Source of the DNA: Verrucomicrobiota bacterium | Lineage (GTDB): Bacteria > Verrucomicrobiota > Verrucomicrobiia > Opitutales > Coraliomargaritaceae | Assembly (NCBI GenBank): GCA_039815375.1 | Contig: JBCBZJ010000003.1 | Span: 96,001-160,000 of the forward strand | Length of the DNA: 64,000 nt | Direction of reading: 5' to 3' | Shown: in pieces, positions 33,563 through 39,500 of the stretch | How positions within the stretch are numbered: position 1 is the first letter of the stretch | Layout: each line of letters begins with the position of its first letter | Made by a program: the position numbers

Positions 33563-36500
33563 AATGATATCATCATCCTCAAAACAGCGCACTACATGGA
33601 CGATCGCGTCCACCTCACGTATATTGGCTAGGAATTTATTGCCGAGGCCCTCACCTTTGCTTGCGCCTTCGACAAGTCCGGCGATATCGACAAACTCAAT
33701 CGCTGCCGGAATGACCTTGTCCGTCCTGGCAATCTCTCGAAGTGGTTCGAGTCGGTCATCCGGGACTTGCACGACGCCAACGTTAGGGTCGATCGTGCAG
33801 AAGGGATAATTCGCCGATTCAGCCTTTCGCGTGCGTGTAAGCGCGTTGAAGAGTGTGCTTTTGCCCACATTGGGTAGTCCTACTATACCAGCTTGTAGCA
33901 TAGCGCGCGAAAATGGACCGCCTCACCGACGGTGCAACGAAAAAGGATTGTCGCGATTTACTGATATCAGGTGGACCATTAGTTGACTTTCTTATCATTA
34001 GCTTTTTAAAACGAACGAAAGTTTGCTTTGCATGATATCTGATCCAGCCGAAACAACGAACATCGGTATCGACGGTGCGCGCATCCTCGTAGTAGACGAC
34101 GATGAGATCATTCGTAAATTGCTTCGGCGCGTGTTGGAGCGTAGCGGTTTTGTCGTGGATGAAGCCCATTCCGGCGAAGATGCACTGGTTTGCATTGAGG
34201 CAAATCTTCCGGATCTTATTCTTCTCGACGTGGTGATGGATGGGATCGACGGATTTATCACCTGTCGGAAAATCAAGGGGAGCAAGGGCATGGATGAGGT
34301 GCCGATTGTTTTTGTTACGGGGCGCTCGGATACCGGTTCGATTGTCGAAGGTCTGGATGCGGGCGGAAGCGACTACATCACCAAGCCTATTAATCGGCAT
34401 GAAGCTCTGGCACGTATCCGTAATCACCTGAAAATGCGTTCACTGATGCGAATGCAAGGTGAGTTTATTGCTGGTCTCAAGCGCGCAAATACAGCGAAAA
34501 ACCGTGTCATTGGAGTCGCCTCGCATGATTTAAGAAATCCTATCGCGTCAATTCGGGGTTTATCGGAGTTCCTGGTAGAATCTGGTCCCTTGACTGATGA
34601 TCAAAGAGAAATTGCTACGACTATCCAGGCTACATCGGATTCCATGCTTCAGTTGGTTGATGAGCTACTTGATTTGTCGGTTATTGAGAGTGGTGAAGAA
34701 CGGTCTGAATTTGAACCATGCAGCATCTATGAGATTGTGTCTTCCTCGCTCAATATTTACCAATTCGCTGCTAATAAAAAGTCGATCCACCTCAAATTGG
34801 ACGAGGAAGGCGATACCCCTGATTTATTGCTTCTCGATAAGATGCAGTTCCGCCGCTTGATCGATAACTTGCTCAGCAATGCAGTCAAATATTCGCCCAT
34901 AGAGACTTCAGTGGACGTGCTCCTGAAAGTGGAGGAAAGTATCCTGAATCTCGTAGTCCAGGATGAAGGGCCTGGGGTTCCAGAGAATGAAATGCACAAG
35001 CTGTTCACTGACTTTGGGAAAACTTCGGTTAAACCGACCGGTAGCGAGACAAGCACTGGCCTCGGCCTCTCGATTTGTAAGAAGATTGCAGAGACTCATC
35101 GAGGTAGTATCCGCGCTGAAAACCGTACGGACCGCAGCGGTATGCGCTTTATCTTAGAACTGGATACTTCTTCGCTGGCGGTCGTCGCGTCGGCTAAACT
35201 ATAGGCCGGCTTTTTGGGCCTCGACAGAGGCACCAAGCACGTCGCGAATGGTTAGGATGCCGGTAAGTGTGTCCGTTTGATCAACAACAAGAAGCTTGTT
35301 GCTGCCGCTGCGGATCACTGTTTCCAGGCAGATCTGTATGTCCGTATCCGGTCGGACCACCGGGATTGCCTCGAGCTCCATATTGGTGACGGTGACGCCT
35401 TCCTGAAGACCTTTGGTTTGAACATAGTCGTAGAAGTGCTCCCTCGAAAGGACGCCGACGGTCTTCCCCTCTTCATCGGCGACGGGATAGTAGCTGTGTC
35501 GGTGCTGATTCAGGTATTGCAGGGTATCTGCGATGGAGTCTTTGGTGCTGAGTTGGTCGATCTGGACCGTCATGAGTGCTCTCGCCGGCTGCGTCAGAAT
35601 ATGCGGTGGCAGGGTCGCCTTTATCTGGTTGATTTCGTCGGCCGAACAATACTGCTTGGCCGAGCGTTGAAGCAGACGGCGCATTGATGTGCTATTCTCA
35701 AGAATAGCTTTGAATTCCTCGCTGCCGAGGCCGATCAGTTTGGTGTCATCCAGTGCAATCGCGGTAAAACGCCAGCGCTGGTCTGTCAGTAGGGCGCGTT
35801 CTCCGAAGAACTCGCCGGGGCCAACTTCTTTGATAAGTTGTTCGTTCTCATCGATGATCTTAATACGACCTTCTTTCACGACATAAAAAGAAAAGGCAGG
35901 CTCGTCTCTACGGAAAAGAACGTCGCCCGCCTGTAAGTGAGCCGATTGAATCGGTCGCGTGTAGCGTGGGCTGAGCAGATTGATGTCGCGGGGGAAGAAG
36001 AGATCGAGTGTCCAATCGATCATGACTCGCAGCTTTCGGTCGAGACCAGGGAGTTTGCTCAGGTAAATCGTGCGCCACATCCACCAAGCAATAAAGCCTG
36101 AGAATTTAAGCCCGAATACTTCGGCTACCGCAGTATGGTGACCGATCGCAGCCAGCTCTCCAAGCCCGGTAAAGGTAAAGGGTTTGACCTCCTCAGCACG
36201 AAGAAAGCCGTTGATGTTTTTGCCGAGAAGGGCTCCCTGGCGCATGGCAAACTGCGCGGTCGATGGACAGCTCTCTCCATTCGGCATGGGTACCGCAGCG
36301 CAATCGCCGGCGGCCCAGAGCCAATCATAACCGGGCACCTGCATCGTATTCTTTGTCTTGATTCGACCGTGCTCGCTTTCGAGCTTTGCATCCTTGATCA
36401 GTTGGCTGACCAACGGGTGTGTTGTGTTACCTACCGTCGATATTACCGTATTTGTTTCGATGTAGGTTCCGTCATCGAGCTCGACTTGGTTCGCGGTCAC

Positions 36501-39500
36501 GGCTTTGACACGTCGTTCGAGGCAGAGCTTCAAACCCCGTTTACGCAACTGCTTTTGGGCATATCTCCCGAGCGAGATACTAAGTGTCGGCAGCAAGTGA
36601 TCACGACTGTGAACAAGAAAGACGTCAAAGTCCATCGGATCGATGTTCTTGTAGTATTTATGAACGTCCTGAAAGAGATCTAGGATCTGGCCGGCGGTTT
36701 CGACTCCGGAATAGCCCCCGCCAACAACGACGAAGGTGAGCAAGCGGCGCCGTCGGTCTGTATCGGTAACGAGGTTGGCTTCCTCGAAGCGAGCGAGCAC
36801 AGCCGCGCGCAGCTTCATCGCATCACCGACATTCTGCATGAGGAATGAATGCTCCGACATCCCGGGCACGCGGCTCAAATCGATCGCAGCGCCAAGGGCG
36901 ACGACGAGATGTTTGAAGCGGATGATCACTTCTTGCGAGAACGGGCCCGGTCGAAGCGTCAGCATCTTCTTCTCGATGTCGATTTTCTCAACCGAAGATT
37001 TGTAGACATTCAATCCTCTGCAGAGGTGCCGCACAGGATTCACAACATGCCGTGGCGAGAGTGAACCACTCACCACTTCGGGCAGCATAGGTTGAAAGAC
37101 CATGTAGTTCTGATCGGAGACGAGGCCGATTGGCATGCGCGACCCACGGGTCAGCGTCTTCATCAGGCTTTTCCCGCAGTAAATTCCGGCAAAGCCACCG
37201 CCGAGGATAGCGACTTCGAGGTCGAGTCTCTTTTTCTTTTCCATTTTGGAGTTGCTTGGGTAGTGGTAGTGGTTTCCGTCCGCTGCTCGTACTTGAAATG
37301 AATCAGAAAAAAACAGTTCAAAGACCACAAGTAAAGGCCTTGGCCGCGCTGAAAAGAAAACTACCCGGACGAGTATTCACTGATGATGAGAGCTGTTTCC
37401 ATGCCTCTTTGGATAACCTGCGGCTTTCTTTCGCGCCCGACGCAGTTGTCCGGGTAAAATCGGCGTGCGATGTTGGCCCAGTGCTGAAGCTTGCGAATCT
37501 GCACGGAATTCCGGTCACTGCTCGCGGCGCAGGCTCCTCTGCGACGGGCTCTGCGGTTCCTCTGAAAGGTGGCTGGGCGCTGGATCTGTCTGGCCTGAAC
37601 TCGATTGAAATCGATCCTGTGGCAAGGATTGCAACTGTTGGAGCCGGTGCTGTGACGGCTGAGTTTCAGGAGCAGGCCGAGACTGTTGGGCTCTTCTTTC
37701 CCCCGGACCCCTCATCTAAGAAATACACGACTTTGGGCGGCAACATCGCCTGTAATGCCGGTGGTATGCGCTGTGTGAAATATGGAGTTACCCGCGACTA
37801 TGTGCTTGGTCTCCAGGGTTTTTTGGCAAACGGCAGCCCATTCAAATTTGGTTTGCCGCTGAAAAAATATGTTTCCGGCCTGAACCTGCGCGACCTGCTG
37901 ATCGGCTCTGAAGGCACACTGGGTATCGTTACCTCAGCCGCGATTAAGTTAATCCCCAAGCCGGAAAAACGCTGGACAGGTATGTTCGCTTTCAAGAGCG
38001 AAGCGGCTGCGCTCAAAGCCGTAGTCGCGCTCTTTAGAGAAGGTCACAACCCCTCGATTCTGGAATTCCTCGACCGCCAGTCGGTGGGCTGTTCGGAGAG
38101 ATACACGAGTCAGACTGTTTTTGAGGGGCACTCGCGATCTGCAATTCTCTTGATCGAGCTGGATGGAACACCCTCAGAGCTACGCAAGGCGCGTCGTGCG
38201 CTTCTGGATTTTATGGCTGGCCGAGTCGTGGCCTATCGTGAGGCGAAGACAGAGGCCGCTGCCGAGAAACTCTGGCAGGTGCGCCGGACTTGCTCGCAGT
38301 CGATGTTCTCCCTGGCCGATACAAAGTTGAACGAGGACGTGGTCGTCCCACTTGAGAAGCAGGCTGAGCTTATTCGCTATACGCTCCAGCTTAAGAAAGA
38401 GATTGGTCTCGCGACGCCAACCTTCGGCCACGCGGGCGACGGCAATCTTCATGTGCACATCATGTATAACCGTGGCTCAAAGGCCGACGCAAAGAAGGCC
38501 AAGGCGGGGATCAAAAAGCTCATGCAGAAAGTGGTCGACCTCGGTGGTGTGATCACGGGGGAACATGGCATCGGTCTTGCGAAGATACCATTCATGCCGA
38601 TGCAGCACACGAAGTTGGAGATCGAGGCCATGCGCTCTGTGAAGGCAGCACTTGATCCGAAGGGGATTCTCAATCCCGGCAAGATTTTCGAGCCTTTCGA
38701 AGTTTGGGAGCACGAACCTGTTGACGTCCGCCTTCCCTGGGATCACCATTAGTTCATGAGCGAAGTTTTGATTGGTTGGACCACTTGCGACAATCCTGAT
38801 GTTGCGGAGCGTTTGGCACACGAGCTCGTCGAGCGCGATCTTGCTGCCTGTGTGCAGATCGAAGACGGCGTTCGTTCTGTCTTCAAATGGAAGGGAGAAA
38901 TCCAGAGTGACCTAGAGTGCCGTCTATGTGTGAAGTTTGACGCTGAAAAAATCGACACAGTAGGGAGCTTTATCAAGGCGCACCACCCCTACGATAATCC
39001 GGAGTGGGTCGTGACTCGGGCGGATGTTGTTTCCGAGAGATATCAAGCTTGGGTTACCGGACGTTAGCTCGACTGTCTGCGATCAGAAGTTCGTCTGGAT
39101 CGACCAGCGGAAGAATCTGGAGTCACCGGATATTGTTTGTTCGATATCGATTTGATTGCCATCGCCAGCAACGGGTTCCTCTTGCACCGGATCCCATTCT
39201 ATAAAGTCAGAGCTCTCGAAGAGTTGGTATGTGAATTCGGAAGCGGTTTTTACGGAAAGCGTAAGCTCTTCTGAGCGCGCGTCGTAGCCAATCGTTGGCT
39301 CTGCGACTGAAGCAGGGTAGAGCTCCGCTAGATTGATGGCTTTAGACTTGTTTTAGGGTAGTTCAATTATGGTTGGTTCTCTCAAGATCGTTTCAAACGC
39401 ACTGTAAGTTGTGGCTGGTTAATTAAGTTTATCCGTGCCGGGATCTTCCATGGTGCTAGTTTGCCGCGGCAGTGGTTACGGATCGCGCGTTTCCAATTGC

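What a model noticed while it worked through the whole genome (the two positions that open the first line are those of the whole stretch)
35199..37244. Type II NADH dehydrogenase fused to cyclic-nucleotide and CBS sensor domains
g02962 (681 aa) is an NDH-2 (Pyr_redox_2 + NDH2_C) that carries a C-terminal cNMP-binding domain and a CBS pair. I propose that entry of electrons into the respiratory chain is switched directly by cAMP/cGMP and adenine nucleotides. A ligand-gated NDH-2 has not been described to my knowledge.
Evidence so far: pfam.tsv: Pyr_redox_2 10-337 (1e-41), NDH2_C 361-420, cNMP_binding 436-517 (2e-21), CBS 555-607 and 627-673; 29.5% to M. tuberculosis Ndh over 421 aa. Of 40 other Verrucomicrobiota sampled, 5 match at E<=1e-50: 2 extend through the cNMP domain (to residue 501-528), none through the CBS pair, the rest are plain NDH-2; the frame here is open over 725 aa. 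A CHASE2-cyclase (g02507) is in the genome.
(Added by a program. Inside this text positions count along the whole contig: contig position 96,001 is position 1 of the stretch shown here. "Call 12" and the like, gene names such as g00115 and contig names such as C1 are that model's own, and its searches are not shown. The text may have been shortened before it was handed on; [...] marks where a part breaks off. The agent that wrote the report below was given it as the finding of a first reader that could run no searches.)

Follow-up and report, generated by a model that had tools for sequence, protein, structure and literature searches.

The report
NDH-2 with fused nucleotide-sensor domains
A respiratory NAD(P)H dehydrogenase of a kind that is normally a bare enzyme carries two sensor-type domains here, and although its cAMP pocket looks disabled, its CBS pair looks intact and related bacteria keep an intact cAMP pocket, which points to an undescribed, nucleotide-controlled branch of these enzymes.

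Summary
In detail: 37244-35199 (-) encodes a 681-aa NDH-2-type flavoprotein with a cNMP-binding (CNB) domain and a CBS pair. It is a conserved family, not a one-off: 119 of 120 best homologues share the architecture. The CBS pair keeps a ribose Asp and a basic triad (59 of 64 Trp-type, 0 of 22 Arg-type), so adenine-nucleotide sensing is the better reading (about 45%). His replaces the NADH-selecting acid, so NADPH use is likely. The gene sits in a wider CNB-fused NDH-2 clade that has lost the WxxG Trp (0 of 155 keep it, 48 of 51 outside do). Its outer members (Acidobacteriota, Nitrospirota, Planctomycetota, 'Deltaproteobacteria') keep a canonical pocket, so cAMP gating fits them. Nothing was shown to bind or regulate. 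Ligand-gated NDH-2 has a precedent (Ca2+/EF-hand). Three literature searches found no CNB/CBS form; the scan's earlier notes concern a different NDH-2 fusion. Verdict: new variant of a known kind, interest 0.62.

The parts
35199..37244 (-). Gene for the 681-aa NDH-2-CNB-CBS protein (P0001)
36234..37217 (-). Two-dinucleotide-binding flavoprotein core (residues 10-337): GGGFAG (FAD), GGGYSGVE with E182, GD 313-314
   Evidence: Pfam; motifs; model matches NDH-2 structures at Z 42-46
36603..36611 (-). [quoted passage not shown]
   Evidence: H in 120 of 121; aligned to D of 9mqy and E of YjlD
36429..36440 (-). S269-T-V-G272 in place of the NDH-2 WxxG motif
   Evidence: S 114, C 7, W 0 of 121; aligned to W of 9mqy; clade marker
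36237..36257 (-). Quinone-site motif, AQxAxR variant (A330-Q331-F-A-M-R335-Q)
   Evidence: A330, Q331, R335 in 121 of 121; variant found in 15% of NDH-2s (PMC5299459)
35985..36164 (-). NDH2_C membrane-attachment domain with two predicted helices (384-397, 401-416); no transmembrane segment
35616..35951 (-). Cyclic-nucleotide-binding homology domain with its C-helices (432-543); phosphate cassette at 35754-35807 with Trp491 (35772-35774) at the canonical Arg
35424..35582 (-). CBS domain 1 (555-607), with conserved H583, P587, R601; ribose Asp position is His603 here
35226..35366 (-). CBS domain 2 (627-673), with conserved R645, K650 and G662-x-x-T665-x-x-D668
34023..35204 (+). Neighbour, not part of the finding: convergent receiver-histidine kinase gene, 6-nt overlap at the stop codons
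   Evidence: orthologue beside the gene in 1 of 93 related loci, plus one distant 30% hit
37298..38752 (+). Neighbour, not part of the finding: divergent GlcD-like FAD-linked oxidase gene, 53 nt from the NDH-2 start
   Evidence: beside the gene in 3 of 93 related loci

Best explanation
An accessory, membrane-attached, non-pumping NAD(P)H:quinone oxidoreductase whose activity is tuned by adenine nucleotides bound to its C-terminal CBS pair (ATP/ADP/AMP; c-di-AMP or Ap4A not excluded). The CNB domain descends from a real cyclic-nucleotide sensor but in this lineage has Trp in place of the phosphate-binding Arg and serves as a structural relay between CBS pair and enzyme. Shown here: architecture, NDH-2 fold and catalytic motifs, loss of the cAMP determinants, conservation of the CBS residues, descent from Arg-bearing relatives. 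Inferred: quinone-reductase activity (about 0.85), NADPH as a donor (about 0.6), adenylate binding by the CBS pair (about 0.7), regulation of catalysis by it (about 0.65 given binding). Most likely role, inferred: a valve that oxidises surplus NAD(P)H without pumping protons when the energy charge is high and is damped when it is low, beside complex I and two plain NDH-2s.
For: Core: Z 45.6/44.4/44.2/42.4 to four NDH-2 structures against 34.4 for FSP1 and 32.0 for SQR; E182, G313-D314, A330-Q331, R335 in 121 of 121. CNB: W117/Y3/F1/R0 of 121 at the Arg position, ungapped to the Arg of Plasmodium PKG; Gly at the partner position in 0 of 78 aromatic-type and 26 of 57 Arg-type domains; Kannan 2007 names this Arg and Gly as what separates cAMP binders (PMC2246266, passages); the Trp persists in four CBS-less relatives that have lost the FGE motif (L095-L098), which fits a packing role. 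CBS: R601 120, R645 120, K650 115, D668 119, T/S665 118 of 121 although CBS columns average 0.50 conservation; all three basic residues in 59 of 64 aromatic-type and 0 of 22 Arg-type proteins. Genome: NuoH, PntB, three haem-copper oxidase subunit I genes, two plain NDH-2s, a diadenylate-cyclase domain. Many CBS domains regulate enzymes through bound ligands (PMC9293649, passage).
Against: No binding, activity or expression data. Some aromatic-type relatives lack the CBS pair altogether (9 of 80 loci are complete CNB-only forms), so it is dispensable in part of the clade. The ribose Asp of CBS1 is His here and Asp in only 73 of 121. The Trp-type rows are one clade, so the CNB/CBS contrast rests on few independent events. 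G481, E482 (121 of 121), R483 (112) and A484 (118) are kept, which a wholly dead pocket would not need. The core departs from canonical NDH-2 at WxxG (Trp in 99% of 1762, PMC5299459) and at the YD pair (F110-K111). Inter-domain placement is unresolved (pTM 0.64 full length, linker 423-428 below pLDDT 50). The gene is patchy: 13 of 200 phylum genomes, none in the one same-genus genome searched.
Confidence: 0.45

Rival explanations
1. The CNB pocket has been re-tooled for another small molecule (a nucleoside, a linear nucleotide or a metabolite), as in trypanosomatid PKA, CooA or CprK; the enzyme integrates that signal with the CBS signal.
For: G481-E482 invariant, R483 112, D488 115, W491 117, Y532 117 and the loop P449-A450-F451-S452 118-121 of 121; the motif matches the non-canonical 'CBS' CNB family of Kannan 2007, with GERALL and an aromatic residue at the Arg position; four DUF294 CNB-CBS proteins also have FGER[AG]LL and no Arg; CNB pockets without the Arg bind nucleosides in trypanosomes (PMC10959531, passages).
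Against: The Glu that defines the trypanosomatid nucleoside pocket (PKA Ala202 position) is Ala484 here (118 of 121); the Trp survives where the FGE motif has decayed; I could not inspect the modelled pocket.
Confidence: 0.2
2. One reading: cAMP or cGMP binds this protein's CNB domain and, with adenine nucleotides at the CBS pair, switches the enzyme.
For: Strong cNMP_binding hit (8.6e-22); ribose-binding Gly-Glu and the Ala kept; R492 (85 of 121) or R483 might supply charge; a CHASE2-cyclase is present; Arg-type relatives exist in the same clade (11 of 81 rows).
Against: Arg replaced in 121 of 121 close relatives and its partner Gly too; the degenerate third CNB stretch of Plasmodium PKG shows a similar aromatic-for-Arg pattern in the alignment (its failure to bind cGMP is recalled, not read); cyclase presence does not track the pocket type.
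Confidence: 0.12
3. The extra domains are not ligand switches: they serve dimerisation, stability, localisation or partner binding, or are decaying passengers on a constitutive NAD(P)H:quinone reductase.
For: The C-terminal extras vary freely across the clade (none, CBS, FHA, TPR, AhpC); several branches have degenerate CNB domains or none; CBS pairs commonly form homodimers (PMC9293649, passage).
Against: The residues conserved in the CBS pair are the charged, ligand-type ones, held at 45-55% overall identity; 119 of 120 best homologues keep both modules intact.
Confidence: 0.15
4. The core is not a respiratory enzyme but a dedicated quinone reductase for a side pathway (as NdbB/NDC1 in vitamin K1 synthesis, or an FSP1-like quinol antioxidant), under the same sensor control.
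For: His-Ser at the donor-specificity site and loss of the WxxG Trp set it apart from respiratory NADH-type enzymes; two plain NDH-2s and complex I already cover respiration; NdbB/NDC1 are NDH-2 homologues with a biosynthetic role (PMC5877776, PMC6553663, passages).
Against: No conserved neighbouring pathway genes in 80 loci; closer in fold to respiratory NDH-2s than to FSP1; membrane-attachment domain and quinone motif intact.
Confidence: 0.08

Closest known systems
Canonical bacterial and yeast NDH-2 (mycobacterial 9mqy, S. aureus 5na1, C. thermarum 4nwz, yeast Ndi1 4g6g)
   Same: Fold (Z 42-46), both Rossmann motifs, catalytic Glu, GD pair, quinone motif (AQxAxR variant), C-terminal membrane helices.
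   Different: About 250 extra C-terminal residues (CNB + CBS pair); Ser for the WxxG Trp; His-Ser-Arg for the NADH-selecting acid; F-K for the YD pair.
EF-hand, Ca2+-regulated NDH-2 of plant and fungal mitochondria (NDB type)
   Same: An NDH-2 with a built-in ligand sensor; NDB1 is also NADPH-type (PMC5877776 and PMC5299459, passages).
   Different: The sensor is an insertion in the core and binds Ca2+; here it is a C-terminal nucleotide-type module in bacteria.
NADPH-oxidising NDH-2s (S. aureus NDH-2B; Synechocystis NdbB and Arabidopsis NDC1)
   Same: Second, accessory NDH-2 with a donor preference other than NADH (PMC11302666, PMC5877776, passages); here inferred from a non-acidic specificity residue.
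   Different: No sensor domains; the residues reported for NADPH types are Gln or Asn, not His, so the inference is by analogy.
Kannan 2007 'CBS' CNB family / DUF294 nucleotidyltransferase-like proteins
   Same: CNB followed by a CBS pair; FGER[AG]LL cassette without the Arg.
   Different: The module precedes a nucleotidyltransferase beside a sodium:solute symporter gene; its CBS pair lacks the basic triad (0 of 4) and scores lower against this family's profiles than sister NDH-2 modules do.
Kannan 2007 'Bact_Pyrredox' CNB family
   Same: CNB fused behind a pyridine nucleotide-disulphide oxidoreductase domain; the paper notes that NADH metabolism may involve CNB domains (passages).
   Different: Described as tandem CNB domains with a canonical Arg; not called NDH-2, no CBS pair. 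I did not obtain its members.
Trypanosomatid PKA regulatory subunit (nucleoside-binding CNB)
   Same: A CNB domain that lost the phosphate-binding Arg in one lineage while keeping Gly-Glu (PMC10959531, passages).
   Different: It gained a Glu at the Ala202 position; this protein keeps Ala and has a bulky Trp.

Membership tests
NDH-2 (type II NAD(P)H:quinone oxidoreductase) | GxGxxG for FAD and GxGxxGxE for NAD(P)H | tested here: met
   G15-G17-G20 and G175-G177-G180-E182; E182 in 121 of 121; motifs from PMC5299459
NDH-2 (type II NAD(P)H:quinone oxidoreductase) | GD pair and quinone-site motif (AQxAxQ, AQxAxR or APxAxQ) | tested here: met
   G313-D314 and AQFAMR, invariant positions in 121 of 121
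NDH-2 (type II NAD(P)H:quinone oxidoreductase) | C-terminal membrane-attachment domain with two helices, no transmembrane span | tested here: met
   PF22366 2e-12; helices 384-397 and 401-416 in both models; highest 19-residue hydropathy 1.55. Predicted, not measured.
NDH-2 (type II NAD(P)H:quinone oxidoreductase) | Fold closer to NDH-2 than to SQR, FSP1 or disulphide reductases | tested here: met
   Z 45.6 (rmsd 2.1, 406 aligned) to 5jwa and 44.4 (2.5, 426) to 9mqy; FSP1 34.4, SQR 32.0
NDH-2 (type II NAD(P)H:quinone oxidoreductase) | WxxG motif (Trp in 99% of 1762 NDH-2s) and YD pair | tested here: not met
   S269, Trp in 0 of 121 and 0 of 155 in the clade; F110-K111 at the YD pair. Filed as a divergent NDH-2-type subfamily, not as a canonical member.
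NADH-specific NDH-2 | [quoted passage not shown] | tested here: not met
   H212 in 120 of 121; rule from PMC5877776
NDH-2 (type II NAD(P)H:quinone oxidoreductase) | FAD-dependent NAD(P)H:quinone activity at the membrane | not testable with these tools
   needs an enzyme assay
Canonical cAMP/cGMP-binding CNB domain | CNB fold with Gly-Glu and Ala of the phosphate-binding cassette | tested here: met
   PF00027 8.6e-22; G481, E482 121 of 121, A484 118 of 121
Canonical cAMP/cGMP-binding CNB domain | Phosphate-binding Arg (PKA Arg209) | tested here: not met
   W491; Arg in 0 of 121. Met in the sister family: 119 of 120.
Canonical cAMP/cGMP-binding CNB domain | Gly of the beta2-beta3 loop that co-evolves with the Arg (PKA Gly169) | tested here: not met
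   A450 in 120 of 121; position assigned from the loop pattern and the PKG alignment. Met in 117 of 120 of the sister family.
Adenylate-sensing CBS pair (Bateman module) | Two CBS domains with a G-h-h-T/S-x-x-D ribose motif (motif recalled, not read here) | tested here: met
   CBS2 G662-I-L-T665-I-R-D668, D in 119 of 121; CBS1 has His603 (Asp in 73 of 121), so one site, not two
Adenylate-sensing CBS pair (Bateman module) | Binding of a specific adenosine ligand that regulates the fused enzyme | not testable with these tools
   needs binding and kinetic data
c-di-AMP receptor CbpB/DarB | NCBIfam NF041630 above its cut-off | tested here: not met
   27 bits against 125; this does not exclude c-di-AMP as a ligand
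DUF294-type CNB-CBS module (Kannan 'CBS' family) | Descent from that module rather than look-alike drift | tested here: inconclusive
   Cassette motif alike; four DUF294 modules score 40-54 (CNB) and 17-33 bits (CBS), the six nearest Arg-type NDH-2 sisters 55-61 and 28-68; only four alphaproteobacterial DUF294 proteins were compared
Marreiros group C NDH-2 | A cysteine pair and actinobacterial/proteobacterial clade (as summarised in 10.1101/2025.10.14.682086) | not tested
   C315 (120 of 121) and C326 (108 of 121) are conserved, but the defining paper is not held

The most novel reading that the evidence does not exclude
A whole undescribed branch of bacterial NDH-2s is under direct second-messenger control: the ancestral form, common in Acidobacteriota, Nitrospirota, Planctomycetota and other soil and water bacteria, is gated by cAMP or cGMP through a canonical CNB domain that docks near a remodelled NAD(P)H site (the lost WxxG Trp), and the Verrucomicrobiota lineage to which this gene belongs handed the control over to an adenylate- or c-di-AMP-binding CBS pair while its CNB pocket was closed or switched to a new ligand. 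It would be the first respiratory dehydrogenase known to me that is gated directly by cyclic nucleotides, with a natural ligand switch inside one family.
Probability: 0.35. Interest if true: 0.85.

Novelty: new variant of a known kind. Interest (0 to 1): 0.62.

Why it matters
NDH-2 is treated as a bare, unregulated bypass of complex I, controlled through gene expression; the one built-in sensor I found in print is the EF-hand of plant and fungal enzymes. A bacterial clade with nucleotide-sensing modules would give cells a fast, post-translational handle on how much reducing power is spent without proton pumping, and would add an enzyme target for cAMP outside transcription and protein acetylation. 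The claim is directly testable with one soluble domain and one enzyme assay, and cultured hosts exist (Coraliomargarita algicola is among the hits). It also fills a gap: a 2025 survey built on COG1252 detected no NDH-2 in Verrucomicrobiota (10.1101/2025.10.14.682086), while this genome holds three.

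Tried and rejected
Cyclase co-occurrence: 50 of the 80 loci were tested; 28 of 37 aromatic-type and 11 of 13 Arg-type genomes have PF00211: uninformative, and the genomes are incomplete. 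Operon context: no neighbour recurs beyond close kin in 80 loci (largest real clusters 7-8 loci; the top clusters are antisense frames of the gene itself); window neighbours recur in at most 3 of 93 loci. Promoter scan of 34900-37600: 1 site against 1.5 expected, none for this gene; one hairpin with a T-run at 35189-35210 (+) lies over the two stop codons. Complex prediction of core (5-424) with CNB (428-546) and FAD: no answer, not used as evidence. Mean-field coupling analysis (391 of 491 sequences, effective number 213): plausible within-domain pairs, but the best core-CNB pairs (A365-A495, A248-H436, Q186-F493) are scattered and not trusted. Module swap from DUF294 proteins: not favoured on four proteins. 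RecA hits to the CBS region: 10-bit repeats summed over fusion constructs, an artefact. RNA runs: no RNA holder listed. A stand-alone or split form of the sensor module: 6 short hits among 742 candidates, four of them close pieces of this family that look like fragments. First regex labelling of the pocket mislabelled rows and was replaced by alignment-based labels. Na+-NQR/Rnf (PF03116) and futalosine MqnA-type (PF02621) not found in the genome; the quinone type was not established. Literature searches with no paper on this architecture: 0 hits each; one irrelevant hit; term look-ups for cyclic/CBS/fusion inside three NDH-2 papers found nothing relevant. Marreiros 2016 (PMID 27105286), the broadest family survey, is not held and may list such fusions; supplements of the bioRxiv survey could not be seen.

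Full report
OBSERVATION. The window encodes, at 37244..35199 on the minus strand, a 681-residue protein. The best solved relatives by sequence are NDH-2s. An AlphaFold2 model of residues 1-546 (pLDDT 89.3) matches four NDH-2 structures at Z 42.4-45.6, well above FSP1 (34.4) and sulfide:quinone reductase (32.0). GC content is even across the three parts (0.51-0.56; genome 0.51). The gene stands alone between a convergent receiver-kinase gene and a divergent GlcD-like gene; neither neighbour is kept beyond a few close relatives.

IT IS A FAMILY. Of the 120 best homologues, 119 carry the same Pfam set, at 50-88% identity; those with names are Verrucomicrobiota. Of 80 GTDB loci kept (the best of 597), 76 are Verrucomicrobiota, 3 Nitrospirota and 1 Planctomycetota; 62 match to residue 650 or beyond, 9 are complete forms that end after the CNB domain, and 9 are cut, broken or matched less far. 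It is patchy: 13 of 200 other phylum genomes of at least 90% completeness have a member, and the one same-genus genome searched has none. A profile search of 50%-identity representatives shows a wider group: 74 of the best 150 have a CNB domain, and the 73 scanned show further extras such as FHA, TPR, AhpC, DoxX, MIP and glyoxalase domains. No NCBIfam model reaches its cut-off among those shown for this protein or for an Arg-type relative.

THE ENZYME CORE. The FAD motif, the NAD(P)H motif with Glu182, the GD pair and the quinone motif in its AQxAxR form are intact; E182, G313, D314, A330, Q331 and R335 are invariant in 121 aligned sequences. Marreiros 2017 (PMC5299459; parts 1 and 2 of 6 and passages read) lists these as family motifs and AQxAxR as a variant in 15%. 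Two changes lie at the adenosine end of the donor site. First, the acid that selects NADH is His212, followed by Ser and mostly Arg (H 120, S 117, R 89 of 121); it aligns with Asp or Glu of NADH enzymes. Plant work says Glu selects NADH and Gln or Asn NADPH (PMC5877776, passages); His is not covered, so NADPH use is my inference. Second, the Trp of WxxG, 99% conserved in 1762 NDH-2s and placed near the NADH adenine, is Ser269. Trp390 appears to sit where Firmicutes enzymes have the Lys tied to a charge-transfer mechanism, which would predict ping-pong kinetics (10.1101/2025.10.14.682086; parts 1 and 2 of 6 and passages; alignment). The genome's two other NDH-2s are plain, with WAAG and Gln or Glu at the specificity site, and it has NuoH, PntB and three haem-copper oxidase subunit I genes. 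So this is an accessory inlet, not the gate of respiration.

THE CNB DOMAIN IS NOT A CANONICAL cAMP SITE. Aligned without gaps to Plasmodium PKG, Trp491 falls on the Arg that binds the cyclic phosphate. It is W in 117, Y in 3, F in 1 and R in none of 121. Kannan 2007 (PMC2246266, passages) defines cAMP-binding CNB domains by this Arg and by a Gly in the beta2-beta3 loop; that position is Ala450 in 120 of 121. The ribose-binding Gly-Glu, the following Arg483 and Ala484 are kept. The same paper lists a non-canonical 'CBS' family with GERALL and an aromatic residue at the Arg position; four DUF294 proteins I fetched share FGER[AG]LL without the Arg, and the Atlas's nearest other structures are CNB-CBS and DUF294 proteins. 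They score lower against this family's profiles than the nearest NDH-2 sisters do, so drift in place is more likely than a swap, on a small sample. In four CBS-less relatives the FGE motif has decayed while the Trp remains (L095-L098), which suggests that the Trp packs the domain. The CHASE2-cyclase exists, but so do other CNB proteins with the Arg, and cyclases are as common beside aromatic-type genes (28 of 37) as beside Arg-type genes (11 of 13).

THE CBS PAIR LOOKS LIVE. CBS columns average only 0.50 conservation, yet H583 (113), R601 (120), R645 (120), K650 (115), G662 (120), T/S665 (118) and D668 (119 of 121) are held. The G-h-h-T/S-x-x-D ribose motif (recalled from CBS reviews that I did not read here) is complete in the second domain and broken in the first (His603; Asp in 73 of 121), so one site is predicted. 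Among CBS-bearing proteins, all three basic residues are present in 59 of 64 aromatic-type, 2 of 7 other and 0 of 22 Arg-type proteins. The ligand cannot be named: the CbpB/DarB model scores 27 against a cut-off of 125, but the genome has a diadenylate-cyclase domain with DGA and RHA motifs, so c-di-AMP stays open beside ATP, ADP and AMP.

HISTORY. A FastTree of the core alone (208 of 233 sequences with a near-complete core, rooted on the genome's two plain NDH-2s; SH-like support only) gives a 155-row clade (98) that holds 132 of the 133 detected CNB domains. None of the 155 has the WxxG Trp; 48 of the 51 rows outside do, including the one outside row with a CNB domain. This is one event, so it shows coincidence, not co-evolution. 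Within it an 81-row clade (99), whose named rows are all Verrucomicrobiota, holds 68 of the 69 aromatic-type rows and 11 Arg-type rows; its sisters, including the Nitrospirota and Planctomycetota loci, have the Arg. A profile of 26 sequences that I chose for having the Arg returned 120 best hits, all NDH-2 plus CNB; 119 have the Arg and 117 the Gly-Asp loop. The choice makes the residue count partly circular, but it shows that the canonical form is abundant; named hits are Acidobacteriota and 'Deltaproteobacteria', and Atlas clusters of this architecture are led by Acidobacteriota, Pseudomonadota and Verrucomicrobiota. The simplest reading is an ancestral cNMP-sensing NDH-2, later addition of a CBS pair in some branches, and loss of the cAMP site in the lineage of this gene as the CBS site became fixed. 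Retention or reversion in the nested Arg-type subclade is not resolved.

MECHANISM. Most likely (0.45): a membrane-attached, non-pumping NAD(P)H:quinone reductase, probably able to use NADPH, tuned by adenine nucleotides at the CBS pair, with the CNB domain as a relay; by inference it opens when energy charge is high and reducing power is in excess. Rivals: a new ligand in the CNB pocket, as in trypanosomatid PKA (PMC10959531, passages) (0.20); structural or decaying extras (0.15); cAMP/cGMP gating of this protein (0.12); a non-respiratory quinone reductase (0.08). No step after the sequence and model evidence is shown. How the modules touch the core is open: the full-length model has pTM 0.64 and a low-confidence linker.

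NOVELTY. Full-text searches for NDH-2 with cyclic-nucleotide-binding or CBS domains returned no paper, within a library that lacks most subscription papers, among them Marreiros 2016. Precedents: EF-hand NDH-2s proposed to be calcium-regulated, and a table row in Kannan 2007 for tandem CNB domains behind a pyridine nucleotide-disulphide oxidoreductase domain. Automatic annotation already names the domains, so the architecture is in databases but, as far as I found, not discussed. The scan's earlier notes hold no CNB/CBS form; three describe an NDH-2 with an N-terminal membrane module, which may be the roughly 590-residue, N-terminally extended rows outside the CNB clade in my tree. Verdict: a new variant of a known kind; interest 0.62.

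Noticed in passing
window 27203-32107 (-): A run of redox genes: NirB-like flavoprotein with a BFD-type stretch and a hydrophobic C-terminal part in place of the nitrite-reductase haem domain (658 aa; TIGR02374 matched over 13-467, below cut-off), a bacterial globin, a cytochrome c, a Tll0287-like protein and a ResB-like protein. Possibly an NO, nitrite or oxygen-handling cluster.
   Followed up: partly
window 42427-43599 (+): 390-aa ORF with no Pfam or NCBIfam hit; by eye it recalls a metallo-aminopeptidase, untested.
   Followed up: partly
G000:C40:85983-86363 (-): The genome's diadenylate-cyclase domain lies in a longer protein whose N-terminal part looks PTS-EIIA-like by eye; motifs DGA and RHA rather than RHR.
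   Followed up: partly
L058-L061, L063, L064, L068-L070 (gene in each locus): A soil Verrucomicrobiota subclade has Glu at the PKA Ala202 position, as nucleoside-binding trypanosomatid PKA does, while keeping the Arg, and has lost the CBS basic residues: a candidate second ligand switch.
   Followed up: partly
proteins P0140, P0144, P0147, P0157, P0161, P0163, P0172, P0178, P0188: The same NDH-2 clade carries many other fusions: AhpC/TSA, TPR, FHA, aquaporin-type MIP, DoxX and glyoxalase domains.
   Followed up: no
G000:C49:37897-38742 (-): A stand-alone 282-aa protein of two CNB domains, the first with the canonical Arg, like a bacterial PKA regulatory subunit; a similar tandem-CNB end occurs in a 986-aa ORF next to the NDH-2-CNB gene in L103.
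   Followed up: no
G000:C40:249307-250644 (-) and C62:169536-170891 (+): Two plain NDH-2 genes (Gln-type and Glu-type at the specificity site) in a Verrucomicrobiota-type genome, against a 2025 COG-based survey that detected none in that phylum.
   Followed up: partly
window 36267-36302 (-), residues C315 and C326: Two conserved cysteines between the GD pair and the quinone motif (120 and 108 of 121), the stretch in which other NDH-2s carry regulatory insertions; a possible redox site.
   Followed up: no
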